From the NCBI GenBank assembly GCA_028279655.1, contig JANQNH010000001.1:17484-81483 (forward strand): a stretch of DNA of 64,000 bases, in the 5' to 3' direction. The notes beneath the pieces are model-generated. The model was not told the DNA's origin and did no database searches. It was given only the letters and a program-made list of their open reading frames with translations. The first letter of the stretch is position 1. Every line of letters begins with the position of its first letter. This document shows, piece after piece, positions 29,781 through 55,953 of the stretch. A program made the position numbers and the translations under genes. The stretch comes from Candidatus Nanoarchaeia archaeon (lineage in GTDB: Archaea; Nanobdellota; Nanobdellia; Woesearchaeales; JACPBV01).

Positions 29781-29782
29781 CT

Positions 29783-30152: not shown

Positions 30153-30169
30153 TTTTTTTATTCTATTAG

Positions 30170-33514: not shown

Positions 33515-33552
33515 AAAATATTAAATATGAGTGATTTTATTTATATGGTAAG

Positions 33553-33939: not shown

Positions 33940-33961
33940 TTTTATTATACTAATCCCCTAC

Positions 33962-35089
33962 CTATCTCATGATTGCCTTATAGTGGTTCATAACATACAC
34001 AACACTTATCTTCTGTTCCCTTTTGGCAAGCTTGCCGAGCACATCGGTTGGATCATTTTTGAGATACTTCTTATTATCTTCAAGATCCCTTCCAATAGCC
34101 TCGCAGAACAAGGGGTGGGGTATTTCAATGCCTATAGTGCCACCATATCCAACTCTTCGCAGCATACCAAATAACTCCTTCATGTCCTTACCAACAGGGG
34201 TGTTTTCATTAATAACTCCCCTATTACCAGGACTATTCCATGGGCCCCATTCGCTAATATGCAGATGGGCAACAGTATTAGCTTTAATCGCTTCCTCAAG
34301 AATATTGAGATACTTATCGCCATAGAGTGCCCTTAAGTGAGCAGTATCGAGATGCATCTTAAAATACGGGCTTCCTGTTCTCTGGACATACTCCATATAC
34401 CTTCTAACATCCGAAAGCGCCCTTGATTCATCTGTTCTCAGAGCCTCTGGAGCACATACTACACCCATCTCTTTTGCCTTAGGAAGGATAATAGTACCTA
34501 GGCTCTCATTCCATCGCTCATACAGTCCACTCACATCCGGGTTAAAGTGCTCATCCACCATGCCAGGACCAACTACTGTTTTAACCTTGGCAGCACCTCC
34601 AAGCTCCAAGAAGTTATGTGCCCACTGCAGCCCCTTATTGCTCTCAGGATGCCTGCTTGATGCATAGTTTGCAGATAACATTCCTTCTTTAGCAGGACCT
34701 ACAAACGTTAGCAGTATTGGTTCCAGACCAAACCCCCTAACTATATCCCCTGCCTGCTCATACCATCTAACCTGTGCCTTATCAAAATTATCAAAATTAA
34801 GCCCCGAATTACCAGGCACAGTTGCTATCTCATACGAGCCTCCTTTTTCAACTCCAGATTCTAATGCAAGCTCAAGGTTTCTTTTTAATCCATCGTGATT
34901 TTTATCTGCCGGACCATTACCTAACCAAGTATTGATATCTACTATGCCAGGTGGAATTGGCGGTGTTCCTTTATGGTATATCACAGGACCTTGTCCATGT
35001 GCAGCTTCAGCACTAAAAAATTCTATTAATGCTGGCAAAGAAATAGTACCAGCTGCTAAACCTTTTATAACTTGCCTACGATTAATCAT
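33962..35089 (-). CDS. Xylose-isomerase-like TIM-barrel sugar-phosphate isomerase/epimerase with twin-arginine-like signal peptide. Locally GC-rich.
   Basis: N-terminus MINRRQVIKGLAAGTISLPA...AEAAHG. VAHLHISEW...PGNRGVINENTPVGKDMKELFGMLRRVGYGGTIGIEI. Confidence 0.6.
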   Translation of the reverse strand: MINRRQVIKGLAAGTISLPALIEFFSAEAAHGQGPVIYHKGTPPIPPGIVDINTWLGNGPADKNHDGLKRNLELALESGVEKGGSYEIATVPGNSGLNFDNFDKAQVRWYEQAGDIVRGFGLEPILLTFVGPAKEGMLSANYASSRHPESNKGLQWAHNFLELGGAAKVKTVVGPGMVDEHFNPDVSGLYERWNESLGTIILPKAKEMGVVCAPEALRTDESRALSDVRRYMEYVQRTGSPYFKMHLDTAHLRALYGDKYLNILEEAIKANTVAHLHISEWGPWNSPGNRGVINENTPVGKDMKELFGMLRRVGYGGTIGIEIPHPLFCEAIGRDLEDNKKYLKNDPTDVLGKLAKREQKISVVYVMNHYKAIMR

Positions 35090-43994: not shown

Positions 43995-44633
43995 ATGGCA
44001 GCAGACATAACAGGAGAGCTGAATTCTAGAGACCTTAAGGAATTTGGGAAGGACTTCGGAGAGGTAATGAGGGTATACTCTGGGATAAATAAAGAGTATG
44101 CTATGCCTGGGAAGGAGACTGACAGATATATCGATAGGTTTAGAGACGGGCTTAAAAAGTTTAACAAGAAGTATAAGAACCTGGTTATTAATCTTAGGGC
44201 AACAACAGAGAAGCTGAACCTGAGTATTTTTATAAAAGATGGGGGCGTTAAGGAGGTCTTTGCTAATGTTGCTTCTAAGCTAAACGGCCTTAAGGCTGTT
44301 GGGCTGAAGGACTTTGGAGAGGTTAAGGTTGAGGAACCAGAGTTCTCTGACGTTATCGAAAAAGTTAAGGATAGATTATTCATCTCCTATGTTGAGCAGT
44401 CAGAATCTTCGGTTTATCTGGAGCAGCGGAAGGATATGGTAGAGCTGCATGCTGATGAAGATATTGGGAATCCTAGTTCTCCTGGGTTTAAGATCCTTGG
44501 TTATTATGCAGTTAAGGATATGGGGAAATGTGACGTATATAGTATTTTGTCTGGGATAGGATTTATGGAGAGGCCTATCTTGGATAAGGTTAGAAGTATG
44601 CTGAAGAAGTTCAATCCGAGGATTGGAGAATGA
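43995..44633 (+). CDS. Hypothetical protein, ATGA-coupled to the downstream antiporter
   Basis: ORF only. Confidence 0.45.
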   Translation: MAADITGELNSRDLKEFGKDFGEVMRVYSGINKEYAMPGKETDRYIDRFRDGLKKFNKKYKNLVINLRATTEKLNLSIFIKDGGVKEVFANVASKLNGLKAVGLKDFGEVKVEEPEFSDVIEKVKDRLFISYVEQSESSVYLEQRKDMVELHADEDIGNPSSPGFKILGYYAVKDMGKCDVYSILSGIGFMERPILDKVRSMLKKFNPRIGE

Positions 44634-45652
44634 TCCCTTTATTTTTTGTTCTTATCGGAATAGCAGGACTTTATTTTGGGGCAGATTATGTTGTTGAGAG
44701 CGCGAAGAACATCGCTGAGAAGCTTAAAATCTCCCATACTCTTGTTGGGCTTACTATAATCTCCATAGGAACATCCATCCCTGAGATAATGACTAACTTA
44801 GTTAGTGGGCTTAAGATTAGGCAGGGGATAGATGCTTCTGGTATCGCTGTTGGGACTAATATCGGTTCTGACGTTACGCAGATCACTTTTATCCTAGGAC
44901 TTACTGCCTTGTTTGGCACGATGTATGCTTCAAAGAAGCTGTTTAGGAGGGATGGTCCCATGGTTTTGTTTTCCATAATAGCTGTCTTTATTGCAGGGAT
45001 TACAGGCTTTGTAGTTGGGTTTTGGGAGGGCCTGGTAATGTTGCTCATATATTTTGCATATCTTTATTTTACCAGCGAGCACGAAAGGGTGATTGGAAAG
45101 ATTTATGATAAATTGACTGACTGGAGCAAGATTGATAAGCGAAGATACATAAGGAGTGTTCTGGAAAGGGCCTTCAAAAGGGGGTATATTGCCGATGCTG
45201 TACTTATGACTTTGGGGATGATCATATTGGTTTTTGCTTCTGACCTGGTGGTTGGGAGTGCCCTGGAGCTTACAGAGGTCTGGGGAGTTGCACAGAGTTT
45301 TGTTGGGGTGATGGTGGTTGGTGTTGGCACTGGATTGCCTGAGCTTTCAACTGCTATCAGGGCAGCATTCAAGAATGCAGGCGGTATCTCTCTAGGAACT
45401 CTGATCGGAAGCAATATCACAGATCCCATGTTCGCTCTTCCTGTAGGGGCTATGGCTGCAGGAGTTGGACTGAACTTTGACAGGAATCTTCTTTTGTTTG
45501 ATCTCCCCTTTTGGTTTATTGTAACGATCATAGCTCTGACATTCTTTGCAGTTAATAAGAAAGTAGGAAAGGAGAATAAGGTTCATGGTTCGGTGTTGAT
45601 CATGCTATATATACTATTTGTGTTCCTTAAGATCAGATTCTTCCTGCATTAA
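44630..45652 (+). CDS. CaCA-family Na+/Ca2+ exchanger (YrbG-like)
   Basis: Two alpha-repeats: IGTSIPEIMTNL and VGVGTGLPELSTAI. Confidence 0.8.
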   Translation: MIPLFFVLIGIAGLYFGADYVVESAKNIAEKLKISHTLVGLTIISIGTSIPEIMTNLVSGLKIRQGIDASGIAVGTNIGSDVTQITFILGLTALFGTMYASKKLFRRDGPMVLFSIIAVFIAGITGFVVGFWEGLVMLLIYFAYLYFTSEHERVIGKIYDKLTDWSKIDKRRYIRSVLERAFKRGYIADAVLMTLGMIILVFASDLVVGSALELTEVWGVAQSFVGVMVVGVGTGLPELSTAIRAAFKNAGGISLGTLIGSNITDPMFALPVGAMAAGVGLNFDRNLLLFDLPFWFIVTIIALTFFAVNKKVGKENKVHGSVLIMLYILFVFLKIRFFLH

Positions 45653-45771: not shown

Positions 45772-46845
45772 ATGAACATCGGAATACCAAAAGAAACAAA
45801 GATGGGAGAGTTTAGGGTATCTCTGATACCAGATCATGTTAGATTATTGACTAAGGCTGGTCATATGGTTTTTGTTGAGAAGGATGCTGGTAAGAGGTGC
45901 AAGTTCTCCAACAGGGATTATGAGAAAGCAGGTGCTGTAATCGTTGATGATGTTTATGATTGTGAGATGATTGTCAGGGTAAAGGAGCCTCCACTGGCTA
46001 CAATAAAGAAGAACCAGGTAATAATGGGTTATCTGCATATAGAGAAAGGTCAAAACCTGGTATTATTGAACAAATTCCTTGATCAGAACTCTACAACTTA
46101 TGCTTATGAAGAGATAAGGGACGATAAGAGCAATAGATTGGTAAATCTTGGAGTAGAAGCAGGCATAGTTGGCATGTATGAAGGATTACGTTTGTATGGA
46201 AAAACCCTTGAGAAGAATGGGGGGATGAACAGGTTTAAGAAACTGAAGCCTATAAAGACCTATTTCTGTATCGAGGATGTCTATAAGGCGCTTAAGGAAG
46301 CCCATGTCCATAATAATGTCAATGTATATATATTTGGGAAAGGAAGGGTAAGTACTGGAGCACAGAAGGTCCTTTCTTATACAGATATCAAACCGCAGGT
46401 CCTATATAGAGACAGGACATCTTATGCAGAGGAATTTTTGCCAAAGGCAGACATCATACTTAACGCTGTTGACTGGTATCCTGATGAGCCCAGGATAATA
46501 ACAAAGAATATGCTTAAGCTGATGAAGAGATCTGCAGTGATTGTTGATATATCCTGCGATGAGAACGGTTCTATAGAAAGCTGCATACCAACAACATGGC
46601 AGAAGCCCATCTATGTTTTTAACGGAATCACCCATTTCTGTGTTGATAACCTTCCTTCTGCTGTCCCTAGAGATTCTTCAATCCATCTGAGTTCTATGAT
46701 AATACCTCATGTCCTTAAGGTTGCTAATGGCGAAGAGCTTGCTACCGGCCTTATGACAAAGAACGGTATCTTTGAGTATGCTAAGAATAATGAGCATTCA
46801 GAGATCTTTGAGGAGATCCTGGCTCCTGTCCAGGATAGCGCTTGA
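45772..46845 (+). CDS. AlaDH/PNT-N-domain family NAD(P)-dependent dehydrogenase (saccharopine dehydrogenase / carboxyethyl-ornithine synthase-like)
   Basis: N-terminus MNIGIPKETKMGEFRVSLIPDHVRLLTKAGHMVFVEKDAG. Dinucleotide-binding VYIFGKGRVSTGAQ. Confidence 0.6.
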   Translation: MNIGIPKETKMGEFRVSLIPDHVRLLTKAGHMVFVEKDAGKRCKFSNRDYEKAGAVIVDDVYDCEMIVRVKEPPLATIKKNQVIMGYLHIEKGQNLVLLNKFLDQNSTTYAYEEIRDDKSNRLVNLGVEAGIVGMYEGLRLYGKTLEKNGGMNRFKKLKPIKTYFCIEDVYKALKEAHVHNNVNVYIFGKGRVSTGAQKVLSYTDIKPQVLYRDRTSYAEEFLPKADIILNAVDWYPDEPRIITKNMLKLMKRSAVIVDISCDENGSIESCIPTTWQKPIYVFNGITHFCVDNLPSAVPRDSSIHLSSMIIPHVLKVANGEELATGLMTKNGIFEYAKNNEHSEIFEEILAPVQDSA

Positions 46846-46946
46846 TTTTTTTACAATAGTTTTTAAGAATTGGAAATTCTTAAACCTTTATTATTTCGCT
46901 TCTCTTAATAAGAAAGTTTATATATTTCTGGTGTTTATTTTGATTT

Positions 46947-47687
46947 ATGGCTAAAGGAAATGCTAAAGAAAAAGCAGCACCCCATTTAGTAAATGCTGAG
47001 GAAGAGGTAGGCTCTACTCCAGTAAATGCTAAGGGGGAAGGAGCACGTATTCTAATTGTAGATAATGAAAGTAAATATATGGCGGACTTGAAGACGACTG
47101 TTGAAGCTCATGCTGAAGCAAATGCTAATGGAAAAGTCAAGGTTGATAAAGTTCATGTTAAGGATGCTATAGGTAAACTAAAAGATGAGGCGCCTTATGA
47201 TGCGGTTATATTATCTGGAAGTTTTAAAAGAAGATATGATAATGAAGATGTCCAGAATGTTATTAAATTTGTTGATGATTACAATAAAGGCAAGAATGCT
47301 CCTGACAAAAAAATTCCTGATCAAAAGATAGATCTATATGGTGCTTGTCTGGGGCATCAGGCTTTGATCCATTATCATGGTAAGGGACAAGCTGAATTTG
47401 TTGAACTAGGGAAATATATCAAAGGGGATAAGGACATAACCCTTAAAGATAAGAGTATGGTAAAATCCCATAAACATCATAAGCACGCTTTTAAAAGTGC
47501 CCCTAATCTAGAGATAATAGCAACTAGTTCAGTAGAGGATTCTGGAGGTACATCTCATGATATAGTTGAAGCTGTAGAACATAAAGATATGCCATACTCT
47601 TCTTCTCAGGGTCATGCCTCAAGACCCGGACATGCTCAAGATATGCTGTATAAGATGTTGCTTAAGGTTTACCAGAAAGCAGCTTAA
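46947..47687 (+). CDS. Class-I glutamine amidotransferase-like (GATase1 / peptidase C26) protein
   Basis: Nucleophile elbow LYGACLGHQAL (G-x-C-x-G-x-Q). His/Glu near C-terminus. Confidence 0.55.
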   Translation: MAKGNAKEKAAPHLVNAEEEVGSTPVNAKGEGARILIVDNESKYMADLKTTVEAHAEANANGKVKVDKVHVKDAIGKLKDEAPYDAVILSGSFKRRYDNEDVQNVIKFVDDYNKGKNAPDKKIPDQKIDLYGACLGHQALIHYHGKGQAEFVELGKYIKGDKDITLKDKSMVKSHKHHKHAFKSAPNLEIIATSSVEDSGGTSHDIVEAVEHKDMPYSSSQGHASRPGHAQDMLYKMLLKVYQKAA

Positions 47688-49318
47688 ACCTCTTTTACCA
47701 TCTTAACTGTAAAATGCCTGAATCCCATCTTGTCGTATAGTTTTATTGCAGCTTTGTTGTCCATGTGTATCTCTAATGATACATGAGGCACCTTATTTGA
47801 CTTAAGCCATTCTAATGCGCTCTTTACAAGATTCTCTGCTACTCCTTTTTTCCTGTGTTCCTTGTCAACAAATAGGTTGCTGATGTGGCCTTTTCCTTCT
47901 TTGTGATACCTTGAGATCCTCAGAGGGGTAAAGAATTTTGCAAGGATAGCCCCCACTATCTTGTTTCTATCTTCTGCTACAAACAGGATCCTGTCTGGTT
48001 TTGTAAGATCAAACTGAAGGTATTCCCTGTAGTAATGTTTGCTTTTGGTAATCGGTTTAAGGGTATTTGAGTATTTCAGCTCCTCTTTTTTTGACATAAG
48101 CCTTAGCTTGAAGAGCTCGTCAAAGTCATCTATTGTCGCTTTCCTTATGGCTATGTTATCTCCATAGTTATCTATAATGTCTTTTATGAAGTATCTGCTT
48201 AGGTTGTATCTTCTCACTCTTGGGAATCCTGGAAATGCATTGATCTCTATGAACTCTGCCTTCTTCTTGTCAGCACAGAGCATCATGTCAACCCCTCCAA
48301 AGTTCAGGCCTAATGCTTTTATCGCCTTAATGGCGCTTTGTTTGGCAAATTCCAGCTGTTTTTTTGGAAGGGTTTTTTCAAAGCTTAGTTTCTCTCCTAT
48401 GGCGCCCTGGGATATGTTTGTTGTAACTGCTTTTTCGTCATTACTCCTTCCATAGGTGTAAAGGACTTTGTCCTTAAAGACATACATCCTAAGGTCAAAC
48501 TTTCTTCCTTTTATCAGCAACGGGTCAATGGCATCTTCTATTATGATGTCCTTCTTTAGGATCTCACTCAGGAATCTGGTCTTGTTTGTTATGTTAATAA
48601 AGGTCCAGCCATAGTCTGATTTTCTGCTTAGGATCTTTCCATTTCTGAACCTGAAATTCGTCATCCACCTGCCTTTCTCAAGATAGGTTATGCCTTTTCC
48701 CATGGAACCATATCTGACCTTAATGAAAAGTTTGCGTCCATTTTCCAGCAGCTTTAAGATATCCTTTACCTTTCTTGTATTGTATGTTTTTGGAATCAGG
48801 ACCCCTGCTTTTGCAACCTTCTTCTTGGTCATCTCCTTATCCCTGTCGGTTGCCAGATTCTTTGGGTGATTGATATAGGTTATCTTATTGTTTTTGTAAA
48901 AATTCTTCAGCTTACTATCTATCTCCTTCCAGAACTTAATGAATTTGGTGTAGAAGCTCTTGTTTCCATAGATGCCCTTGTATTTCTTTGGTTCAATATA
49001 TTTATCCCAATACTCAAAAGGGAAGCACAGGAATATTATGATCTCTTTTGTCTTTATCTCTGGGAGTTTTTGGTCTATTACAGACCAGTAATTTGTGGCT
49101 TTTACCTGGATGTTGCTTCCTCTGAAGAACTTTCTCTGCTTGTAGACCTTCTTGAAGGTGTCGAAGTCCTTCCAGTCTCCTATTGCCAATAGTGTTTTCA
49201 TATTTTTCTCAAAATTATTGATACTTATAAAGTTTACTGTGTTAGTCCTTCTGATTGATATGTAAAAAGAAAAACCACCACCAATGGGCTCAAATACGGT
49301 CGTGCTTCGCACGCCCAA
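47684..49318 (-). CDS. YheC/YheD(TTL)-type ATP-grasp ligase fused to a C-terminal GNAT acetyltransferase. Real start may be the internal Met (MKTLLAIGDW).
   Basis: LFIKVRYGSMGKGITYL and RKFDLRMYVFKDKVLYTYGRSNDEKAVTTNISQGAIGE (YheCD signature). GNAT motif A FVDKEHRKKGVAENLV. Confidence 0.6.
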   Translation of the reverse strand: MGVRSTTVFEPIGGGFSFYISIRRTNTVNFISINNFEKNMKTLLAIGDWKDFDTFKKVYKQRKFFRGSNIQVKATNYWSVIDQKLPEIKTKEIIIFLCFPFEYWDKYIEPKKYKGIYGNKSFYTKFIKFWKEIDSKLKNFYKNNKITYINHPKNLATDRDKEMTKKKVAKAGVLIPKTYNTRKVKDILKLLENGRKLFIKVRYGSMGKGITYLEKGRWMTNFRFRNGKILSRKSDYGWTFINITNKTRFLSEILKKDIIIEDAIDPLLIKGRKFDLRMYVFKDKVLYTYGRSNDEKAVTTNISQGAIGEKLSFEKTLPKKQLEFAKQSAIKAIKALGLNFGGVDMMLCADKKKAEFIEINAFPGFPRVRRYNLSRYFIKDIIDNYGDNIAIRKATIDDFDELFKLRLMSKKEELKYSNTLKPITKSKHYYREYLQFDLTKPDRILFVAEDRNKIVGAILAKFFTPLRISRYHKEGKGHISNLFVDKEHRKKGVAENLVKSALEWLKSNKVPHVSLEIHMDNKAAIKLYDKMGFRHFTVKMVKEV

Positions 49319-49456
49319 CCCACAAAGGAAAAAACCATACGTTGTATGCTTTTTCCCTCTACACTCGTGTTTTCACCTATGGTTGTTTTTATGAAATATA
49401 TTTTTTATACTACAAAGTTTTAAATAATAGTGATTTTTGATTGTTAATGGGAGAAA

Positions 49457-50473
49457 ATGAGAATAGCAATAACTTGCAGCATAAAACCTGAAAATGTTCG
49501 TGAAGAGGAGAAGGAGAAGTATGCTGAATTTGATTCTAAGGAAACCATTGATGATCTTTCAGAAGCTATCAAATCAAATGCGCATGAAGTTGAGATTATC
49601 GATGTAAGAGAAGATATAAAGGATGTCCTGATGTCTAAGAAGGACAATATTGATCTTGTTTTTAATGTTGCAGAGGGAATTGAAGGGGAGGAGAGAGAAG
49701 CACTGGTTCCCGGAGTATGCGAGGAATTAGGCATTCCTTTTTCCGGCGCTGGTTTCAAGACCTCTGTGATTGTGCTAAATAAGGCAAAGGCAAAGGATGT
49801 CCTGATGAAGAATGATATCAAAACTCCCAGATATAAGGTTTTTGAGACTGGAAATGAAGCATTTGATCTGAGATTTCCCATACTCATCAAGCCTTTGATC
49901 GAAGGAAGCTCTAGGGGTGTATTTAATGAGAACCTAGTTAGTAATGTTGAGGACCTTAGGAGAATTGTAAGAAAAATTATCGAGGAATATAAACAGCCAG
50001 CCATAGGGGAGGAATTTCTTAGCGGCAGGGAATTTACTGTTTCTGTTATTGGCTATAAGAACCCAATAGTGCTTCCGATTGTTGAGATAAAGTTTGATCA
50101 TCTTCCACCTGATATCAACCCCATGGATAGTTATGAAGCAAAGTGGATATATGACAGTCCTGAATATAATGAGAAGCATAATGTTGATCCTGTCCAATGT
50201 CCTGCTATTCTTGATGATAGGCTGAGACAGGAGATAGAGGATATAGTTTTGCAGACCTATAAGGTATTAGATTGCAAGGATTGGGCAAGGATTGATGTTA
50301 GACTGGATAAGGAAGGAGTTCCAAATATCTTGGAGGTTAATACCCCTCCTGGTTTTATGAAGGATCCTAAAGAAAATTCAAGGTTGCCAAAGGCTGCCTA
50401 TGCTAATGGATGGAGTTATGAGAAGCTTATCGGAGAGGTTTTGAAGAGCGCTATTGGGAGGTGGAATCTGTGA
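49457..50473 (+). CDS. D-alanine-D-alanine-ligase-like ATP-grasp enzyme, paralogue 1
   Basis: Ddl N-domain and ATP-grasp. AEGIEGEEREALVPGVCEELGIPFSGAG. ILIKPLIEGSSRGV. EVNTPPG. Confidence 0.7.
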   Translation: MRIAITCSIKPENVREEEKEKYAEFDSKETIDDLSEAIKSNAHEVEIIDVREDIKDVLMSKKDNIDLVFNVAEGIEGEEREALVPGVCEELGIPFSGAGFKTSVIVLNKAKAKDVLMKNDIKTPRYKVFETGNEAFDLRFPILIKPLIEGSSRGVFNENLVSNVEDLRRIVRKIIEEYKQPAIGEEFLSGREFTVSVIGYKNPIVLPIVEIKFDHLPPDINPMDSYEAKWIYDSPEYNEKHNVDPVQCPAILDDRLRQEIEDIVLQTYKVLDCKDWARIDVRLDKEGVPNILEVNTPPGFMKDPKENSRLPKAAYANGWSYEKLIGEVLKSAIGRWNL

Positions 50474-51468
50474 AAATTGCTGTGATATATACCAAGAGAG
50501 AAGAGATGGCAGAATCATACCATGAGGATTGGGAAGGCAGGGATACTAATGATGATGCTGAGTCTGTTATGAAGGCTTTAAAGGAACTAGGGCATGAGGT
50601 TAAGGTATATTATGTTGATCTTGACCTGTTCGAGAGCCTTAAGAGGGATAAGAAAGACATAGATATGGTTTTTAACATGTGTGATGACGGTTTTTATTCT
50701 GATCCTGAGTTAGAGCCACACGTGCCTGCCATGCTGGATATTCTGGAGATACCCTATACCGGGGGAGATTATCTAACATTGGCTTTGACCTTAAGGAAGG
50801 CTATGGTAAAGAAGATACTTATCTATCATGATCTTCCTACGCCAAGGTTTAAACTCTTTGAGACCGGAGATGAATCTTTTGATATGGGCTTTCCATTGAT
50901 TGTTAAGCCTGCTCTGGAGGACGCTTCTATCGGGATTAAAGATGAGTCTGTTGTATATGATGAAGAGAAATTGAGAGAAAGGGTCAAGTACGTTATCAAG
51001 GAGTATGAGCAGCCTGCGCTTGTTGAGGAGTTTATCGATGGAAGGGAGTTTAATGTTGGAGTGATAGGTGATAATGAGATACTTCCACTTTCTGAGATAA
51101 CCTTTGATGGTCTGCCTGCCGATAAGCCCAAGATTGTGAATTATGATGCTAAGTGGAAGGAGGATTCTATCGATTATAAGGAAACCAGAAGGAGCTGTCC
51201 TGCAAAGGTTGATGAGATATTAGGAAATAAGCTTAGGGAACTTGCCTTGAAAGCGGGTTCTTTGTTTGGATGCAGGGATTACTTTAGGGTAGATTTTAGG
51301 GTTAGGGGGGATGAACCTTTTATCCTTGAGGTTAATCAGAGCCCGGATATCTCAGAGGATGCAGGTCTTTTTGCTATGGCCCAGGCAAAAGGTTATAGCT
51401 ATAAGGATCTGATCGACAAGATTATCACCAATGTTATGAAAAGAGAAAAGGATGATAGTCCAGAATAA
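50461..51468 (+). CDS. D-alanine-D-alanine-ligase-like ATP-grasp enzyme, paralogue 2
   Basis: Same architecture as paralogue 1. LIVKPALEDASIGI. LEVNQSPD. 13-nt overlap with paralogue 1. Confidence 0.7.
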   Translation: MESVKIAVIYTKREEMAESYHEDWEGRDTNDDAESVMKALKELGHEVKVYYVDLDLFESLKRDKKDIDMVFNMCDDGFYSDPELEPHVPAMLDILEIPYTGGDYLTLALTLRKAMVKKILIYHDLPTPRFKLFETGDESFDMGFPLIVKPALEDASIGIKDESVVYDEEKLRERVKYVIKEYEQPALVEEFIDGREFNVGVIGDNEILPLSEITFDGLPADKPKIVNYDAKWKEDSIDYKETRRSCPAKVDEILGNKLRELALKAGSLFGCRDYFRVDFRVRGDEPFILEVNQSPDISEDAGLFAMAQAKGYSYKDLIDKIITNVMKREKDDSPE

Positions 51469-52786
51469 GCTTGAGAAAAGAGGTTTTTCTGTAAATCTAT
51501 TTAAAGATGCAAGTATAGAATACCAGGAGGATGTCTGGGAGAATATTTCTGAGGATTATAAGAAGGCGATTATGGATAACTTAGTCTATCTGAAGCTATC
51601 CCCTTATTCTATGTTCCAGGAAATGCATTTTGATTTCCCTAAGCCTTTTCTTTCTGAATTGGGGGACAAGGGGGTTATCGGGGATATTCCAAGAATCGCA
51701 TATGAAGATAAGGTTTCTGCTAAAGAGATGATTGAGAGGTTTAGGAATAAACATGTTGATTTTTGTGAAGGTAGCTCTGCATCCATGAGTGGTATAGAGA
51801 CTGAAGATACCCCCTTGATCGGGATTTCTTTTGGGAAGGATAGTCTTTTGTCTTATGCAGTTGCTAAGGAATTAGGACTAGATCCTGAGCTTGTTATGGT
51901 ACAGGATTTCTGGGATAAGGAGGCGGACTTTAAGTTTGACATAATAGACAGATTTGAGGATGAGTTTGATGAGGAGATATACATAGTTTATGATTACATG
52001 GATGATGTATCAGCCTATAAGCGGATAAATAAGCTTGGTTCAGAGGGGGTTGTTGGTGCTAATGCGATAAATTCCTATATTGCCATGCTTCTTCCATTGG
52101 CAGTGAGGCATAGGGCAGATACGCTTGTCTTTGGGAATGAACAAAATTTTAATGATTACTTTTTAAATGAAGAGGGATTTAAGGTTTATCCTTCCTATGA
52201 ACAGTCGAGCGACTGGATGGAGGAACAGAACAAGGCCTTGGATGAGTTTACAGGAGGAAATGTTAAGGTCACTAGTTTTGTTGAGCCCCTGTATAATATT
52301 GCTGAGGTGAAGGTATTGTTCAGCAGGTATCAGTCTATAGCAAGATATCAGATGTCCTGTGATCTTTCATACTCTAAAGGGGGGAGAGGGATGTGGTGCT
52401 ATAACTGTCCTATGTGCGGCAAGGCCTTCCTATACCTAAAGGCCATAGGTGTTGATCCCAAGGTCATTGGTTTCAATAAAAACTTTTTTGACAAGGAATT
52501 TGAAAGACACTATCCTTTGTTCACCCCGCCTACCCGCATCTATGAGAAGCCTGCTGCTGTAAGGGATGAGCAGCTTTTTGGTTTTTACCTTGCTTTTAAG
52601 TCGGATTGCAAGGGTTATCTTATTGACCAGTTTGCGGATAGGTTTTTGGATGAAGCTAAAGAACGCGAGGATGAGTTATTCAATAAATTCTTCAAGGTGC
52701 ATGATTCTGTGTCTATGGATGGGAGGATCAAGGCAGGGATCAATTCTATCTATAGAGAGGAGCTGGATAAGGAGAGCTTAGGATGA
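51452..52786 (+). CDS. PP-loop (adenine-nucleotide alpha-hydrolase superfamily) ATP-pyrophosphatase-like protein with CxxC...CxxC zinc ribbon. Candidate amidoligase.
   Basis: LIGISFGKDSLLSYAVAKELG (variant of SGGxDS). MWCYNCPMCG. 17-nt overlap with the upstream gene. Confidence 0.5.
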   Translation: MIVQNKLEKRGFSVNLFKDASIEYQEDVWENISEDYKKAIMDNLVYLKLSPYSMFQEMHFDFPKPFLSELGDKGVIGDIPRIAYEDKVSAKEMIERFRNKHVDFCEGSSASMSGIETEDTPLIGISFGKDSLLSYAVAKELGLDPELVMVQDFWDKEADFKFDIIDRFEDEFDEEIYIVYDYMDDVSAYKRINKLGSEGVVGANAINSYIAMLLPLAVRHRADTLVFGNEQNFNDYFLNEEGFKVYPSYEQSSDWMEEQNKALDEFTGGNVKVTSFVEPLYNIAEVKVLFSRYQSIARYQMSCDLSYSKGGRGMWCYNCPMCGKAFLYLKAIGVDPKVIGFNKNFFDKEFERHYPLFTPPTRIYEKPAAVRDEQLFGFYLAFKSDCKGYLIDQFADRFLDEAKEREDELFNKFFKVHDSVSMDGRIKAGINSIYREELDKESLG

Positions 52787-54153
52787 GATGGGAAGATGCT
52801 ATCGGTCCATTAAAGGAAGGATGGAATGAAGATATTGATGAGGATGACGGGAATTACTATGAAGATATAGTCAACAGCGTCTTAAAAAAGAAGGATTTGT
52901 TGCTTGAGAGCGCTTCTAGATTTGGCACCCCCCAATATATCCTTGATGAGGATGTCCTTAGGGAGAAGGCGTCTGGTTTTATGCAGAACTTCAGGAATTT
53001 TATACCTAACTCCAGGTTTTTCTATGCTTTCAAGTCTAACGATCTTCCTTACATATGTGGTTTTTTGAGGGATCTTGGGTTTAATGCTGATGTTGCTGGT
53101 TTGTTTGAGCTGCAACTGGCTTTGAAACTGAATTTTAAGCGTATAATCTTTACAGGGCCTGCGAAGAGTACGGAAGAGCTTTTGTTAGCTATCGAAAATA
53201 GAAACAGGGTGGTAATAAATGTGGACAACAAGGATGAGCTTGATAGGGTGATAGGTTTGGTGGATGATGGCAGAGTTAGGATCAGCGTTAGAGTCAATCC
53301 GGATAGTTCGGTGATGAAGACCTGGAGCAAGTTTGGGGTTGACTTCGATGAATTGAAGGAGGTTATCTCAAGGGCCAGGACTAGCAGTAAGGTCTCACTG
53401 GTCGGTCTACATTTTCATTCTTCATGGAACGATACTCCAGAACGTTACTGTAAGAATATTAAACTGATCGGAGAATTCCTGAAGGAAGACCTATCTCAGT
53501 TTGAGTTCCTTGATATCGGTGGAGGGATATATCCAGAGGACCAGGCAACCCTGACAAAGTTCAGCCATAACTATGTCTTAAGAGAGGTTGTTTCAGAGGT
53601 ACAGGAAGAGCATCTTGATTTTGACTTAAGTGAGTTTGTTGTTGATGATGTCGATTCTCTGGAGGTGTTTGGGAAAGAGATTTCGAGTGCGTTAGAGAAA
53701 TATATATTTCCCTTCAATAAAGATATGGATATCTATCTTGAGCCTGGAAGGTATGTCTCTAACAATTCAACCCATATTCTGCTGAAGGTACTCTGTGAAA
53801 AAGGAGAGAACGTGATTGTTGATGGCGGCATGAACCTTATAGGAAGCCTGGATTTTTCACAATATCTTTTTGCACCTATTGTCAACCTTTCTAATCCTTC
53901 CTTGGAATTAAGAAAGAAAACAATCTATGGGAGTCTATGTAAAGCGGATGACCTTTGGGGTTATTCATTTTTTGGAGAGGGTTGCAAGAAAGATGATGTT
54001 GTGATCGTATTGATGCAGGGAAGCTATACATTCTCAAGGGCGTGGAGATTCATTAAAGAGACTGCCCCATACGTTGTTATATCCAACGGTAAATTGAGAT
54101 TAGCAAAAGAGAAAGAAAAATTTTCTGATAGGTATTCTGGCTGCAAGTTCTGA
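52783..54153 (+). CDS. Fold-III PLP-dependent decarboxylase (Orn/DAP/Arg decarboxylase family)
   Basis: FGTPQYILDED. PLP-Lys FYAFKSN. LDIGGGI. YLEPGRY. C-terminal YGSLCKADD. Confidence 0.75.
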   Translation: MRWEDAIGPLKEGWNEDIDEDDGNYYEDIVNSVLKKKDLLLESASRFGTPQYILDEDVLREKASGFMQNFRNFIPNSRFFYAFKSNDLPYICGFLRDLGFNADVAGLFELQLALKLNFKRIIFTGPAKSTEELLLAIENRNRVVINVDNKDELDRVIGLVDDGRVRISVRVNPDSSVMKTWSKFGVDFDELKEVISRARTSSKVSLVGLHFHSSWNDTPERYCKNIKLIGEFLKEDLSQFEFLDIGGGIYPEDQATLTKFSHNYVLREVVSEVQEEHLDFDLSEFVVDDVDSLEVFGKEISSALEKYIFPFNKDMDIYLEPGRYVSNNSTHILLKVLCEKGENVIVDGGMNLIGSLDFSQYLFAPIVNLSNPSLELRKKTIYGSLCKADDLWGYSFFGEGCKKDDVVIVLMQGSYTFSRAWRFIKETAPYVVISNGKLRLAKEKEKFSDRYSGCKF

Positions 54154-54508
54154 AAAAGATTTTTTCTGAGAATTAAAGAATAATTTCTAGATTATAAAAT
54201 TGTAATTATTTTTCTTAAAAAAATAAAAATTTTGTAAAATATTAAAAAACTTTTCTCGTTTTTTTCGACGAGAAATTAAAAAAATAAAAACTTTTTTTAA
54301 AAAAATAAAAAAAAATAAATTTTTTTTTATCCATTTTGTCGACGGTAAATTCAAAAAAGAATAAGCTTTAAATACTACTAATTTCAGTAAAAAATATTAA
54401 AAAAATTAATTTTTTCCAAAAAAAGCTGGTGAAATAAGAGATGATTACCAAAAATTCATTGTTTCTTCTCCATTTTATCCATGATTATAAACTGAGAGAA
54501 GAATTTTT
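54154..54508. promoter_or_regulatory. About 355-bp spacer of more than 85% A+T, low complexity, with AAAAATAAAAA iterations and two GTCGAC-containing motifs, upstream of the aminomutase
   Basis: tttttcgacgag at 54262. ttttgtcgacggtaaa at 54334-54349. Confidence 0.35.
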
Positions 54509-55630
54509 TTGAGGTCAACAATGCCAGGACAACAAGAAGAAACATTGATAAAGAAGAAATATGCGAAAGAGATTGAACAGGTTGAATTATGGGAAGAATT
54601 GTTGAGAAAAAGCATTGTTGATGAAGGGCAGCTTGATGCAATCTGCAAAGGAAATATCGATAAAGAGAAGCTGAAGGCTGTAATCAAGAAATACCCGATG
54701 AGGATAAACCCCTATTATCTAAGTCTTGTGAAAAAGAAGGATGATGCAATCTGGAAGCAATGCATCCCTGATGTCCGTGAGCTTGATGATCCTAAGGGTT
54801 TTGAGGACCCCCTTTGCGAAGAAAGGGACAGTCCGGTCCCTGGCTTGACACATAGATATCCAGACAGGGTCCTTCTGCTGGTATGTAACCAATGTGCAAT
54901 GTATTGCAGGTTCTGTACAAGGAAAAGAAAGGTAGGTGATCCTTTCAAACGGATTACAAGGGCCCAAATATTAAGGGGTATCGAATATATAAAAGGACAT
55001 CCTGAGGTAAGGGACGTGCTTTTGTCAGGAGGAGACCCTTTCCTGCTTTCTGATTCTTATCTTGAATGGATACTGAAGGAACTAAGAAGCATACCTCACG
55101 TTGAGATTATTCGTATTGGAACACGAGTACCATGTGCTCTTCCGCATAGGGTAACTCCTGAGTTGTGCAACATGTTAAAGAAGTACCATCCTTTATATGT
55201 AAATATCCATTTTGCTCATCCGGATGAGATAACTGAACTAAGCGAGAGTGCATGCAATATGCTGTCTGATGCAGGTATCCTGTTGAGTAGCCAGACTGTG
55301 TTGCTTAGGGGTGTTAATGATGATCCTAAGGTCATGAAGGACCTTATGCAGAAGCTCCTGAAGATAAGGGTGCGACCATATTATATCTATCAGGCAGATA
55401 TGACTATGGGGATTAACCATTTCAGAACAAAGGTTGAGAAAGGTATAGAGATCATTGAGAAGATCCAGGGATGGACCTCTGGATTGTGCGTCCCTCATTT
55501 TGTTATCGACAGTCCCGGCGGAGGAGGGAAGATACCAATCCTGCCTAATTTTATTGTTTCCAGAGATGATAAGAAGATAGTCCTAAGGAATTATTCCGGG
55601 AAGACATATACTTATGAAGAGCATTGTTGA
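54509..55630 (+). CDS. kamA: KamA-family radical-SAM aminomutase (lysine 2,3-aminomutase-like)
   Basis: CNQCAMYCRFCTRKRK (CxxxCxxC in the KamA context). LLSGGDPF. PLP-Lys region. C-terminal Cys cluster. Confidence 0.8.
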   Translation: MRSTMPGQQEETLIKKKYAKEIEQVELWEELLRKSIVDEGQLDAICKGNIDKEKLKAVIKKYPMRINPYYLSLVKKKDDAIWKQCIPDVRELDDPKGFEDPLCEERDSPVPGLTHRYPDRVLLLVCNQCAMYCRFCTRKRKVGDPFKRITRAQILRGIEYIKGHPEVRDVLLSGGDPFLLSDSYLEWILKELRSIPHVEIIRIGTRVPCALPHRVTPELCNMLKKYHPLYVNIHFAHPDEITELSESACNMLSDAGILLSSQTVLLRGVNDDPKVMKDLMQKLLKIRVRPYYIYQADMTMGINHFRTKVEKGIEIIEKIQGWTSGLCVPHFVIDSPGGGGKIPILPNFIVSRDDKKIVLRNYSGKTYTYEEHC

Positions 55631-55665
55631 GATAAATAGGAAGAATTCTTTTGATTTTATTTTAA

Positions 55666-55953
55666 TTGTTCTTGATGCAAAGGTTTATATGCTTTTCGCT
55701 AGCTCCAATTTTTATGAGAGCATGTATTGATTGCGATATAACCTTCAAGGTCCAGTATTGTTGTGGATCAGATCCAGATACAAAGAAATCAGTAGATCTT
55801 GTACTAGCGGATGGTCTAGTTGTAAGTGCGTGTCCTAGTTTGAACAGGGACGGTGGCTGCAATCAATACGGCTCAAGACCAGATCCTTGCAAAGAATATA
55901 TAGATTGTCCGAATCTTGAAGGAGTGGATCTTTTTGATATACTATATGCGTAA
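55666..55953 (+). CDS. Small Cys-rich protein (8 Cys) with hydrophobic N-terminus
   Basis: CIDCD...CCGSDPD...CPSLNRDGGCNQ...CKEYIDCPN. Confidence 0.35.
   Translation: MFLMQRFICFSLAPIFMRACIDCDITFKVQYCCGSDPDTKKSVDLVLADGLVVSACPSLNRDGGCNQYGSRPDPCKEYIDCPNLEGVDLFDILYA

What the first reader, a model, noticed from the sequence alone, without database searches (positions are those of the whole stretch)
45772..55953. Uncharacterised amide-bond-forming biosynthetic cluster built around a lysine-2,3-aminomutase-type enzyme
Within 10 kb sit eight enzymes: a KamA-family radical-SAM aminomutase (beta-amino-acid forming), a fold-III PLP decarboxylase, an AlaDH/saccharopine-dehydrogenase-family dehydrogenase (opine-type reductive condensation), a GATase1 and four ATP-dependent carboxylate-activating enzymes. 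The activating enzymes are two tandem Ddl-like ATP-grasps, one YheCD-type ATP-grasp fused to a GNAT, and a PP-loop ATPase with a zinc ribbon. The four middle genes overlap each other's stops and starts. The only known archaeal KamA context is ablA-ablB, which makes N-epsilon-acetyl-beta-lysine as an osmolyte. Here the GNAT is fused to a ligase and three extra ligases, a decarboxylase and a dehydrogenase are added, which points to a more elaborate beta-lysine-derived (or related diamino-acid-derived) oligo-amide, opine or polyamine conjugate. I do not know of a described pathway with this gene set.
Basis: partly seen in the sequence, partly recalled or inferred. Interest (0 to 1): 0.85.

Follow-up and report, generated by a model that had tools for sequence, protein, structure and literature searches.

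The report
Conserved beta-lysine peptide-ligase gene cluster
A DPANN archaeon carries a conserved, uncharacterised set of genes that most likely turns lysine into beta-lysine and joins it by ATP-driven ligases into a small modified peptide-like molecule. Its real core is a new QueC/MurL-like enzyme family paired with D-Ala-D-Ala-ligase-like ligases, a pairing also found in many other uncultured archaea and bacteria.

Summary
Eight enzyme genes of the stated families lie in 45772-55630, and the four middle genes overlap.

The region is two separately conserved modules.

- **Module B (49457-55630):** two Ddl-like ATP-grasp ligases, a 444-aa PP-loop/Zn protein, a fold-III PLP decarboxylase and a lysine-type KamA. 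The same gene set recurs in 9 other DPANN loci.
- **Module A (45772-49318):** an AlaDH-like dehydrogenase, a GATase1 and an ATP-grasp-GNAT fusion. It occurs alone in marine Woesearchaeota and is missing from some relatives that have module B.

The conserved centre is not KamA. It is the PP-loop protein paired with a Ddl-like ligase, directly adjacent in 68 of 85 loci from DPANN, Bathyarchaeia, Patescibacteria and others. This protein has a QueC fold, and its only sequence relative is the ATP-dependent peptide epimerase MurL, remotely. KamA is a swappable supplier of an unusual amino acid: Bathyarchaeia carry a ThrC-like PLP enzyme instead, and Patescibacteria carry neither.

KamA is fused to a Ddl-like ligase in more than 100 protein clusters, and the ligase pocket residues co-vary with the partner enzyme.

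None of the enzymes reaches the cut-off of a housekeeping orthogroup, and I found no published pathway.

Best reading: NRPS-independent synthesis of a beta-lysine pseudopeptide that is modified at a carboxylate, decarboxylated and probably acetylated. The product is unknown.

The parts
45772..46845 (+). g1, AlaDH/PNT-family NAD(P) dehydrogenase (357 aa), module A
   Evidence: Pfam AlaDh_PNT_N/C. TIGR00518 scores 153 bits, below the 392 cut-off. Keeps AlaDH Arg15, Lys74 and His95 and the VDxxxD region in alignments to 1PJB and 2EEZ. Co-occurs with the ATP-grasp and GNAT genes in L012, L092, L093 and L088-L090.
46947..47687 (+). g2, GATase class-I-like protein (246 aa), module A, lineage-restricted
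   Evidence: Pfam GATase 34.1 bits against a cut-off of 22.8. GACLGHQ nucleophile motif; the His/Glu part of the triad is unclear. A GATase gene sits at the same place in L092. L093 has an unannotated 257-aa gene there.
47684..49318 (-). g3, YheCD/RimK-type ATP-grasp ligase fused to a C-terminal GNAT acetyltransferase (544 aa), module A
   Evidence: Pfam ATPgrasp_YheCD, RimK and Acetyltransf_1. The two halves scanned separately give MptN/RimK-like and RimI-like best hits, with weak Ngg (TIGR03103) hits for both. Most homologues are stand-alone ~350-aa ligases at 50-78% identity; the one context examined has a separate GNAT gene next door.
49319..49456 (.). Divergent intergenic region between g3 and g4 with A/T-rich TATA-like boxes and a GGGAG ribosome-binding site
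   Evidence: Read directly: TTTTTATA and TTTAAATA lie about 30-50 nt upstream of the ATG at 49457. Its function as a promoter is inferred, not tested.
49457..50473 (+). g4, Ddl-like ATP-grasp ligase, 'Ddl4 type' (338 aa), the type linked to KamA
   Evidence: Dala_Dala_lig_C. ATP/Mg residues K97, K144, E180, E187, K215, R255, D257, E270 and N272 (E. coli DdlB numbering) are kept, Y216 is Trp, and the N-terminal GGxSxE motif is absent. KamA always co-occurs with this type (16 of 16 loci). The one fusion whose ligase domain was typed (L039) is this type; more than 100 such fusions exist.
50461..51468 (+). g5, Ddl-like ATP-grasp ligase, 'Ddl5 type' (335 aa), the type linked to the decarboxylase
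   Evidence: Dala_Dala_lig_C. Ser150 is Ala. 21 of the 25 loci with the decarboxylase also have this type. In Patescibacteria it is the C-terminal half of an ~807-aa LAL-Ddl double ligase.
51452..52786 (+). g6, QueC-fold PP-loop ATPase with a Cys4 zinc site plus extra N- and C-terminal domains (444 aa); a remote MurL relative and the invariant core of the system
52783..54153 (+). g7, fold-III PLP decarboxylase of its own subfamily (456 aa)
   Evidence: Orn_Arg_deC_N. Best solved relatives are DAP decarboxylase, N-citrylornithine decarboxylase FslC, BtrK and D-Orn/D-Lys decarboxylase. K54, H191, GGG, EPGR, C342 and D346 (E. coli LysA numbering) are conserved. The Glu of the DAPDC CESGD motif is not (CKADD here), and there is an insertion of about 35 aa.
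54509..55630 (+). g8, KamA-family radical-SAM/PLP aminomutase of the lysine type (373 aa)
   Evidence: TIGR03820 AblA 501.7 bits (cut-off 525.4); TIGR00238 298 bits (cut-off 199). Alignment to 2A5H shows the CxxxCxxC motif (CAMYCRFC), Asp293, Asp330 and Lys337 conserved. Cys268 is Asp, and the C-terminal Zn-binding Cys region is missing.
55666..55953 (+). g9, 95-codon Cys-rich ORF; doubtful, probably not part of the system
   Evidence: No Pfam or NCBIfam hit. No homologue in the related loci held at that point (tblastn).

Best explanation
Module B (49457-55630) is an NRPS-independent operon that builds a small beta-lysine-containing pseudopeptide.

**Proposed steps**
1. KamA (g8) converts L-lysine to beta-lysine.
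2. The Ddl4-type ATP-grasp ligase (g4) uses beta-lysine directly, through an acyl-phosphate intermediate, to form an amide with a second amino acid.
3. The PP-loop enzyme (g6) adenylates a carboxylate of the ligase product. By analogy with its only detectable sequence relative, MurL, the most likely outcome is L-to-D epimerisation of the C-terminal residue. The main alternative is conversion to a carboxamide or a further amide, as in QueC, Cap9 and AsnB-type enzymes.
4. The Ddl5-type ligase (g5) adds a further residue, probably through a side-chain amine. The fold-III PLP decarboxylase (g7) then removes that residue's free alpha-carboxylate, leaving an amine terminus.
5. In this lineage the adjacent module A (ATP-grasp-GNAT g3, GATase g2, AlaDH-like g1) probably extends and N-acetylates the product or supplies a substrate. 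It is a separable module.

**Shown here:** the enzyme families, intact catalytic residues, gene order and its conservation, the KamA-ligase fusions, and the co-variation of the ligase pocket with the partner enzyme.

**Inferred:** every substrate, the order of steps, the chemistry of g6, and the product and its role. Candidate roles are an osmolyte, a polyamine substitute or an envelope component.
For: **Co-conservation**
- The Ddl, Ddl, g6, decarboxylase and KamA set occurs in 10 DPANN loci including the window, at 37-86% protein identity.
- g4 to g7 overlap one another.

**Core pair**
- g6 has a Ddl-like gene on the same strand within 300 nt in 68 of 85 loci. These span DPANN, Bathyarchaeia, Patescibacteria, Omnitrophota and others.

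**Modular logic**
- KamA occurs with the Ddl4 type in 16 of 16 loci.
- The ThrC-like PLP enzyme occurs with the Ddl4 type in 31 of 32 loci and never with the Ddl5 type.
- The decarboxylase occurs with the Ddl5 type in 21 of 25 loci.

**Fusions**
- More than 100 clusters of KamA-Ddl fusion proteins exist in archaea and bacteria.

**Pocket co-variation (E. coli DdlB numbering)**
- Omega-loop positions 210 and 213 are Asp/Glu in KamA-linked ligases but Leu/Lys in ThrC-like-linked ones.
- Position 282 is Arg in the former and Phe in the latter.

**Catalytic competence**
- KamA has the CxxxCxxC motif, Asp293, Asp330 and Lys337.
- The decarboxylase has the PLP Lys, His, GGG, EPGR and Cys/Asp residues.
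- The ligases keep the ATP/Mg residues.
- g6 has the PP-loop motif, the Cys4 site and the QueC fold.

**Chemistry of g6**
- MurL is the only family matched, by 25 of 31 members.
- MurL is ATP-dependent, forms AMP and acts right after an amino-acid ligase (PMC5808125, PMC8788868).
- In a Bathyarchaeial subclade of about nine loci, the neighbours are an enolase-superfamily racemase/epimerase-like protein, alanine racemase, an Amidohydro_3-family amidohydrolase and a GGCT-like protein. These are mostly families with known roles in D-amino-acid or peptide metabolism.

**Precedent for 'ligate, then decarboxylate'**
- The closest solved relatives of g7 after DAP decarboxylase include FslC (N-citrylornithine decarboxylase) and BtrK (Glu-ACP decarboxylase).

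**Recurrent GNAT partners**
- L033 has g6 followed by a GNAT gene.
- L096 has a KamA-Ddl fusion next to a Ddl-GNAT fusion.
- The window's clade has the ATP-grasp-GNAT fusion.
Against: - No substrate or product is known, so everything chemical is inference.
- The MurL relationship is remote: 41 bits against a family cut-off of 700. More divergent family members do not score closer to MurL.
- By fold, the nearest enzymes are QueC and Cap9, which form C-N bonds rather than epimerise. A GATase1 gene lies in the cluster in this clade, which fits amidation.
- If beta-lysine were the C-terminal residue, epimerisation next to the carboxylate would be impossible, because C2 is a CH2 group.
- KamA-Ddl fusions work without g6 in Deltaproteobacteria, Thermoplasmatota and another bacterium.
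- Patescibacterial systems have g6, ligases and the decarboxylase but no KamA.
- The role of the decarboxylase could instead be to supply lysine from diaminopimelate, or a free diamine.
- Module A is adjacent to module B in only 4 of 16 KamA-containing loci.
Confidence: 0.5

Rival explanations
1. The pathway has the same architecture, but g6 is an ATP-dependent amidating or amide-forming enzyme rather than an epimerase. It adenylates the peptide carboxylate, and ammonia or an amine attacks. The ammonia could come from solution or from the GATase1 g2, and the amine could be made by the decarboxylase. With the GNAT, the product would be an N-acetylated, C-terminally amidated or decarboxylated beta-lysine peptide. 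That would be a neutral or cationic solute analogous to N-acetylglutaminylglutamine amide.
For: - The best structural matches are QueC and Cap9, both of which make C-N bonds from an adenylated carboxylate. NAD synthetase, GMP synthase and Asn-synthetase-like proteins follow.
- A GATase1 gene lies inside the cluster in the window and in L092, and an unannotated gene of similar size sits there in L093.
- The combination of GNAT, ATP-grasp, amidotransferase and PP-loop enzyme mirrors the Ngg/AsnO logic. Both halves of g3 give weak TIGR03103 hits.
- The E-64 pathway is a precedent for ATP-grasp, then an adenylating amide synthetase, with a decarboxylated amine (PMC12568646, abstract seen).
Against: - No QueC, AsnB or NAD-synthetase sequence model is matched; only MurL is.
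- A GATase neighbour was seen only in this small clade: the g2 query matched 1 of the 85 g6 loci, and Pfam finds one more in L092.
- 60 of 85 loci have no decarboxylase that could supply an amine.
Confidence: 0.3
2. KamA plus the GNAT is simply the known archaeal AblA/AblB route to the osmolyte N-epsilon-acetyl-beta-lysine, and the ligases, PP-loop protein and decarboxylase are unrelated neighbours.
For: - KamA scores 501.7 bits on the AblA model, just under its 525.4 cut-off.
- A GNAT domain is present within 7 kb.
- A Na+/Ca2+ exchanger is a recurrent neighbour, in 9 loci.
Against: - The GNAT is on the other strand and fused to an ATP-grasp ligase. No AblB model appears among the 25 best of its 30 NCBIfam hits.
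- It belongs to a module that occurs without KamA nearby and is absent from relatives that keep KamA (L007, L008, L010).
- KamA is physically fused to a Ddl-like ligase in more than 100 clusters. In every KamA-containing locus a Ddl4-type ligase is present.
Confidence: 0.07
3. The genes make a murein- or pseudomurein-like envelope peptide. On this reading Ddl-like, MurL-like and DAP-decarboxylase-like proteins are diverged cell-wall enzymes acquired from bacteria.
For: - Three of the five module B proteins have their closest named relatives in peptidoglycan precursor metabolism: Ddl, MurL and LysA.
- The family is shared between DPANN and Patescibacteria.
Against: - All three score far below the orthologue cut-offs.
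- The archaeal pseudomurein Ddl model scores 48 bits against a cut-off of 500.
- No Mur ligase, MraY, MurG or glycosyltransferase was seen in the loci with gene calls or among the recurrent neighbour families.
- The Ddl N-terminal D-Ala site motif is missing, and Tyr216 is replaced.
Confidence: 0.08

Closest known systems
AblA/AblB (lysine 2,3-aminomutase plus beta-lysine acetyltransferase) of methanogens
   Same: The KamA enzyme is lysine-type and near the AblA cut-off: 502 bits against 525, with Asp293, Asp330 and Lys337 conserved. An acetyltransferase domain lies nearby.
   Different: No AblB-type GNAT is found. KamA is coupled, and in other lineages fused, to Ddl-like ligases. A PP-loop enzyme and a decarboxylase are added.
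[quoted passage not shown]
   Same: An amino-acid ligase gene is paired with a ~445-aa enzyme that is the only sequence-detectable relative of g6. PP-loop enzymes as a class release AMP, which matches the AMP formation reported for MurL.
   Different: The similarity is remote: 41 bits against a cut-off of 700. The partner ligase is an ATP-grasp (Ddl-like) enzyme, not a Mur ligase. There is no UDP-MurNAc context, and the hosts are archaea.
QueC and the CBASS protein Cap9 (PP-loop, Zn-binding, carboxylate-adenylating enzymes)
   Different: g6 is twice the size, with extra N- and C-terminal domains. It matches no QueC sequence model. Its genomic partners are peptide ligases, not deazapurine genes.
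Ngg/AsnO pathway to N-acetylglutaminylglutamine amide (own knowledge; TIGR03103 model)
   Same: It uses the same enzyme classes: GNAT, ATP-grasp ligase, glutamine amidotransferase and PP-loop enzyme. Both halves of g3 give weak hits to the Ngg model.
   Different: The domain order is reversed and the score is 57 against a cut-off of 569. The amidotransferase is class I and separate from the PP-loop protein. KamA, the Ddl-like ligases and the decarboxylase have no counterpart.
'Ligate, then decarboxylate' systems: FslA/FslC (rhizoferrin) and BtrJ/BtrK (butirosin side chain) (molecule names; pathway logic from own knowledge)
   Same: A fold-III PLP decarboxylase is encoded next to ATP-dependent ligases. 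FslC and BtrK are among the closest solved relatives of g7.
   Different: There is no NIS synthetase or acyl carrier protein here. g7 forms its own subfamily with an insertion of about 35 aa and lacks the DAPDC specificity Glu.

Membership tests
KamA family / lysine 2,3-aminomutase | Radical-SAM CxxxCxxC motif and PLP-binding Lys337 | tested here: met
   CAMYCRFC aligns with C125/C129/C132 of 2A5H, and GGGGK aligns with Lys337. TIGR00238 scores 298 bits, above the 199 cut-off.
KamA family / lysine 2,3-aminomutase | Asp293 and Asp330, which bind the lysine epsilon-amino group (Lys/Asn in glutamate 2,3-aminomutase; own knowledge of Ruzicka and Frey) | tested here: met
   Both Asp residues are conserved in the ungapped alignment to 2A5H.
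KamA family / lysine 2,3-aminomutase | AblA equivalog score and the C-terminal Zn-binding Cys cluster | tested here: not met
   TIGR03820 scores 501.7, below 525.4. The protein ends at residue 373, and Cys268 is Asp.
AblA/AblB N-epsilon-acetyl-beta-lysine system | An adjacent AblB-type GNAT on the same operon | tested here: not met
   The only GNAT is the C-terminal domain of an ATP-grasp protein on the opposite strand. Its best hits are RimI-like, and no AblB model appears among the 25 listed of 30 hits.
D-alanine--D-alanine ligase (Ddl) | ATP-grasp catalytic and Mg/ATP residues | tested here: met
   K97, K144, E180, E187, K215, R255, D257, E270 and N272 are conserved.
D-alanine--D-alanine ligase (Ddl) | Family score cut-off and the D-Ala site residues (Glu15 motif, Ser150, Tyr216, Leu282) | tested here: not met
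   Scores are 168.5 and 154.3, below 243. There is no GGxSxE motif. Tyr216 is Trp, Ser150 is Ala in g5, and Leu282 is Arg in KamA-linked ligases.
Diaminopimelate decarboxylase (LysA) | Fold-III PLP catalytic residues | tested here: met
   K54, H191, GGG, EPGR, C342 and D346 are invariant.
Diaminopimelate decarboxylase (LysA) | Equivalog score and the CESGD specificity Glu | tested here: not met
   TIGR01048 scores 152, below 297.9. The motif here is CKADD, the position is variable across the subfamily, and there is an extra insertion of about 35 aa.
[quoted passage not shown] | Family score cut-off | tested here: not met
   NF041275 scores 41.5 bits against a cut-off of 700. It is matched by 25 of 31 members but only weakly. 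More distant members do not score closer.
[quoted passage not shown] | ATP-dependent, AMP-forming, unidirectional L-to-D epimerisation of a peptide C-terminal residue | not testable with these tools
   This needs an enzyme assay. Only the PP-loop adenylating fold is shown here.
QueC-like PP-loop ATPases | PP-loop fold with an SxGxDS motif and a Cys4 zinc site | tested here: met
QueC-like PP-loop ATPases | Match to QueC sequence models and a deazapurine gene context | tested here: not met
   There is no Pfam or NCBIfam QueC hit. The neighbours are ligases.
Alanine dehydrogenase | Equivalog score | tested here: not met
   TIGR00518 scores 152.9, below 391.85, although Arg15, Lys74 and His95 are kept.
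N-acetylglutaminylglutamine synthetase (Ngg) | GNAT plus ATP-grasp in one protein that reaches the TIGR03103 cut-off | tested here: not met
   Both domains are present but in reversed order, and the score is 57.5, below 569.

The most novel reading that the evidence does not exclude
The 444-aa PP-loop family defines a new class of ATP-dependent enzymes that modify peptide C-termini, by MurL-like epimerisation or by amide formation. Together with Ddl-like ligases it forms a widespread route to D-residue- or beta-amino-acid-containing pseudopeptides that needs neither the ribosome nor an NRPS. The route is found in ultra-small, genome-reduced archaea and bacteria (DPANN, Patescibacteria) and in Bathyarchaeia. 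In DPANN the beta-lysine, decarboxylated version would be a physiologically essential small molecule, for example an amide-linked polyamine substitute or a main compatible solute.
Probability: 0.25. Interest if true: 0.8.

Novelty: new variant of a known kind. Interest (0 to 1): 0.62.

Why it matters
DPANN archaea and Patescibacteria have very small genomes with little biosynthesis, yet they keep a five- to eight-gene, ATP-expensive pathway. Its product is therefore likely to be important for their physiology or for their interaction with a host.

The work isolates three testable items:
- An uncharacterised PP-loop family, with 168 clusters at 50% identity and confirmed relatives at 272 stretches of the one-genome-per-species collection. 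It is almost always paired with a Ddl-like ligase.
- A large set of KamA-ligase fusion proteins that point to unknown beta-lysine peptides in many phyla.
- A new subfamily of fold-III decarboxylases.

Working out the chemistry would add a new type of NRPS-independent peptide assembly. It could also give the second known example of a MurL-type ATP-dependent peptide epimerase.

Tried and rejected
- **Exact look-up of g6 on public contigs:** found nothing, even for the 100%-identical P0001.
- **Sequence search of g6 against PDB:** only chance zinc-finger matches.
- **tblastn of g6 against plasmids, to fetch a true MurL for full-length comparison:** no match.
- **Foldseek against AFDB:** not available.
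- **Profile search of 1.8 billion representatives:** did not bring MurL into the top 150. The most divergent hits did not score higher on the MurL model. I therefore rejected calling g6 'a MurL'.
- **Rfam and tRNA scans of the window:** empty, so no riboswitch explains regulation.
- **g9 as a carrier protein or precursor peptide (LysW-like or RiPP-like):** rejected. It has no family hit and no homologue in the related loci held at that point.
- **A microviridin-like RiPP reading of ATP-grasp plus GNAT:** rejected. MvdC/MvdD hits are below 20 bits, and there is no conserved precursor gene.
- **L012's 309-aa gene as a g2 homologue:** neither BLASTP nor Pfam supports this.
- **The Iyer et al. 2009 amidoligase paper:** could not be retrieved.
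- **Literature searches for MurL with PP-loop, KamA with ATP-grasp, and QueC-like with ATP-grasp:** none found a described pathway.

Full report
**1. What is in the sequence**

The genes run in this order.

| Gene | Coordinates | Identity |
|---|---|---|
| g1 | 45772-46845 + | AlaDH/PNT-family dehydrogenase |
| g2 | 46947-47687 + | weak but above-threshold GATase class I, with a GACLGHQ nucleophile motif |
| g3 | 47684-49318, minus strand | YheCD/RimK-type ATP-grasp fused to a GNAT |
| g4 | 49457-50473 + | D-Ala-D-Ala-ligase-like ATP-grasp |
| g5 | 50461-51468 + | D-Ala-D-Ala-ligase-like ATP-grasp |
| g6 | 51452-52786 + | 444-aa protein with no Pfam family |
| g7 | 52783-54153 + | fold-III PLP decarboxylase |
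| g8 | 54509-55630 + | KamA-family radical-SAM aminomutase |
| g9 | 55666-55953 + | 95-codon Cys-rich ORF with no hits |

- Genes g4 to g7 overlap by 13, 17 and 4 nt.
- g8 follows a 355-nt A/T-rich spacer.
- g3 and g4 diverge from a 139-nt spacer with TATA-like boxes.
- The flanking genes are a Na+/Ca2+ exchanger upstream, and SRP54, an MFS transporter and an archaeal-type ThrRS downstream.
- The host is a DPANN archaeon. The closest homologues come from Nanoarchaeota and Woesearchaeota MAGs.

**2. The PP-loop protein g6**

- An alignment of 31 homologues has an invariant SFGKDS motif and four invariant cysteines.
- The AlphaFold2 model is confident, with a mean pLDDT of 93.7.
- Only the central ~180 residues align with these structures. 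g6 has additional N- and C-terminal domains.
- By sequence, the only family matched is NCBIfam MurL (E 6e-11, 41 bits against a cut-off of 700). It is matched by 25 of 31 members and nothing else is.
[quoted passage not shown] It acts directly after the ligase MurD2 (PMC5808125, PMC8788868).
- The relationship is remote. A profile search of 1.84 billion representatives found 168 clusters at E<1e-30 and 1224 at E<1e-3. The most divergent full-length hits do not score better on the MurL model.
- g6 is therefore a family of its own. It is not a MurL.

**3. Comparative genomics**

A scan of one genome per GTDB species confirmed relatives at 272 matched stretches, and the best 80 loci were fetched. 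I called ORFs in all fetched loci and compared them with the window proteins.

*Core pair*
- Of 85 non-redundant loci with g6, 72 contain a Ddl-like gene.
- In 68 of them the Ddl-like gene is on the same strand within 300 nt of g6.
- The lineages are DPANN (Nano-, Woese- and Aenigmatarchaeota), Bathyarchaeia, Thorarchaeota, Patescibacteria, Omnitrophota and others.

*The DPANN set*
- Ten DPANN loci, including the window, have Ddl, Ddl, g6, decarboxylase and KamA together.
- Some also carry an extra ~410-aa ATP-grasp.
- Protein identities to the window are 37-86%.

*Variants in other lineages*
- Patescibacteria have g6 (sometimes two paralogues), an ~807-aa fusion of an L-amino-acid-ligase-like domain and a Ddl-like domain, a ~444-aa ATP-grasp and the same decarboxylase subfamily. 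They have no KamA.
- Bathyarchaeia have a ThrC-like PLP enzyme (PRK06381 type, 350 bits against a cut-off of 266), g6 and one Ddl-like ligase.
- In about nine Bathyarchaeial loci the neighbours also include an enolase-superfamily racemase/epimerase-like protein, alanine racemase, an Amidohydro_3-family amidohydrolase and a GGCT-like protein.

*Modular rules*
- KamA is always with the g4-like ('Ddl4') ligase type (16 of 16 loci).
- The ThrC-like enzyme is with Ddl4 in 31 of 32 loci and never with the g5-like ('Ddl5') type.
- The decarboxylase is with Ddl5 in 21 of 25 loci.

**4. KamA and the ligase are functionally coupled**

- In Woesearchaeota locus L039, KamA and a Ddl4-type ligase are one 694-aa protein.
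- A search with that protein returned more than 100 clusters (at 90% identity) of 660-880-aa proteins carrying Radical_SAM, LAM_C and Dala_Dala_lig_C. They come from Woese- and Nanoarchaeota, Thermoplasmatota, Omnitrophota, Deltaproteobacteria, Spirochaetales and Eubacteriales.

Their contexts vary:
- L095: the fusion plus two more Ddl-like genes.
- L096: the fusion plus a Ddl-like-GNAT fusion.
- L097: a reversed-order fusion plus an AMP-binding-like protein and a cyanophycinase-family peptidase.
- None of the three has g6.

I compared 103 KamA-linked ligase domains with 31 ThrC-like-linked ones (E. coli DdlB numbering):

| Position | KamA-linked | ThrC-like-linked |
|---|---|---|
| 210 (omega loop) | Asp (0.90) | Leu (0.94) |
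| 213 (omega loop) | Glu (0.95) | Lys (0.81) |
| 282 | Arg (0.96) | Phe (0.97) |
| 216 | Trp | Thr |

- In Ddl these positions line the substrate sites (established knowledge of the DdlB structure).
- The pocket therefore changes with the partner enzyme, as expected if the ligase consumes that enzyme's product.
- The acidic residues fit a substrate with an extra amino group.

**5. The individual enzymes are intact, but none is a housekeeping orthologue**

- **KamA:** CxxxCxxC, Asp293, Asp330 and Lys337 are conserved relative to 2A5H. It is therefore lysine-type, not glutamate-type. It lacks the C-terminal Zn region. Scores are AblA 502 < 525 and EpmB 229 < 369.
- **Decarboxylase:** the PLP Lys, His191, GGG, EPGR, Cys342 and Asp346 are invariant. 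The DAPDC specificity Glu (CESGD) is not conserved, and there is an insertion of about 35 aa. LysA scores 152 < 298. The closest solved relatives are DAPDC, FslC, BtrK and D-Orn/D-Lys decarboxylase.
- **Ligases:** the ATP/Mg residues are kept but the Ddl substrate motifs are not. Scores are 168 and 154 < 243.
- **g1:** it keeps the AlaDH catalytic residues but scores 153 < 392.

**6. The 10 kb is two modules**

- The closest relatives L092 and L093 show the same layout: NaCa, AlaDH-like, a GATase-position gene, ATP-grasp-GNAT, Ddl, Ddl, g6, decarboxylase, KamA. A nucleotidyltransferase/HEPN pair is inserted between the two Ddl genes.
- L012, which is more distant, also has the ATP-grasp-GNAT and AlaDH-like genes next to the cluster, rearranged.
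- L007 has the same flanks (NaCa upstream, SRP54 and MFS downstream) but goes straight from NaCa to Ddl.
- The stand-alone ATP-grasp at 50-78% identity is common in marine Woesearchaeota.
- There, the ATP-grasp, a separate GNAT gene and the AlaDH-like gene form their own trio, with no Ddl, g6, decarboxylase or KamA within 6 kb.
- Module A (g1 to g3) is therefore a separable unit that sits beside module B in 4 of 16 KamA-containing loci.
- A functional link is still plausible, because GNATs recur with these systems in independent forms. In Tritonobacter, g6 is followed by a GNAT gene. In Thermoplasmatota, a Ddl-GNAT fusion lies next to the KamA-Ddl fusion.

**7. Most likely mechanism**

*Shown:* the families, the catalytic residues, synteny, the fusions and pocket co-variation.

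*Inferred:* the following pathway.
1. KamA makes beta-lysine.
2. The Ddl4 ligase couples it to a second amino acid.
3. g6 adenylates a carboxylate of the product.
4. The Ddl5 ligase adds a residue, and the decarboxylase trims its free alpha-carboxylate, as FslC and BtrK do on conjugated amino acids.
5. In this clade the GNAT-ligase acetylates and extends the product.

For the g6 step I favour MurL-like epimerisation, for three reasons:
- MurL is the only sequence relative.
- g6 is paired with a ligase, as MurL is.
- The Bathyarchaeial neighbours are mostly families with known roles in D-amino-acid or peptide metabolism.

I rate this only slightly above amidation or amide ligation. That alternative is supported by the QueC and Cap9 fold matches and by the GATase1 gene in the cluster. 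The physiological role is open. It could be an osmolyte, a polyamine substitute or an envelope component.

**8. Comparison with known systems, and novelty**

- The cluster works like known NRPS-independent amide-ligase pathways: Ngg/AsnO, BtrJ/BtrK, FslA/FslC and the E-64 pathway (PMC12568646).
- It borrows the first step of the AblA/AblB pathway.
- It fails the membership tests for each of these, and for Ddl, LysA, MurL and QueC.
- Searches of the paper library found no description of a KamA plus ATP-grasp pathway or of the g6 family.
- I class it as a new variant of a known kind. The enzyme superfamilies and the general logic are familiar. The gene set, the PP-loop family and the product are new.

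**9. Limits**

- No substrate or product can be assigned from sequence.
- The co-occurrence counts come from loci of at most ±10 kb taken from fragmented MAGs. Absences are therefore soft.
- The locus set was seeded mainly on g6, so it cannot say how often KamA-ligase systems lack g6. Three of the three fusion contexts examined lacked it.

Noticed in passing
window 44630-45652 (+): A Na+/Ca2+ exchanger gene directly upstream recurs next to the cluster in 9 DPANN loci (for example L007, L012, L039, L092, L093). This may be plain synteny or a hint of an ion- or osmotic-stress link.
   Followed up: partly
L092 7942-9028 and L093 7936-9022: A nucleotidyltransferase/HEPN pair (toxin-antitoxin-like) is inserted between the two Ddl-like genes in the two closest relatives. 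The two ligase genes therefore do not need translational coupling.
   Followed up: no
L095, L096, L097 (contexts of KamA-Ddl fusion proteins P0489, P0442, P0482): KamA-Ddl fusions occur in bacteria and Thermoplasmatota without the PP-loop protein. Their neighbours are, respectively, two more Ddl-like genes, a Ddl-GNAT fusion, and an AMP-binding-like protein with a cyanophycinase-family peptidase S51. This suggests several unknown beta-lysine peptides or polymers.
   Followed up: partly
L052, L063, L068, L069, L071, L073, L076, L083 (Bathyarchaeia): A ThrC-like PLP enzyme, g6 and a Ddl-like ligase sit beside an enolase-superfamily racemase/epimerase-like gene, alanine racemase, an Amidohydro_3-family amidohydrolase and a GGCT-like gene. 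These are mostly families with known roles in D-amino-acid or peptide metabolism.
   Followed up: partly
L002 11382-12761, L015 3961-5313, L016 1581-2969, L048 8500-9891: Several loci carry a second, divergent paralogue of the PP-loop protein (21-33% identity) next to the first one.
   Followed up: no
window 24000-34000: A stretch of lower G+C (0.31-0.33 against about 0.40 elsewhere) includes a 1114-aa GLUG-motif protein (30170-33514). It may be a foreign or surface-protein island.
   Followed up: no
window 40-6600: Two large predicted surface proteins: a 462-aa protein with dockerin and thrombospondin type-3 repeats, and a 1713-aa protein with lamin-tail and bacterial Ig domains. Such proteins could serve in attachment to other cells, but this was not examined.
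   Followed up: no
window 55666-55953 (+): A Cys-rich 95-codon ORF lies downstream of KamA, with a CxxC...CC pattern, no family hit and no homologue in the related loci held at that point. It is either a lineage-specific small metal-binding protein or not a gene.
   Followed up: partly
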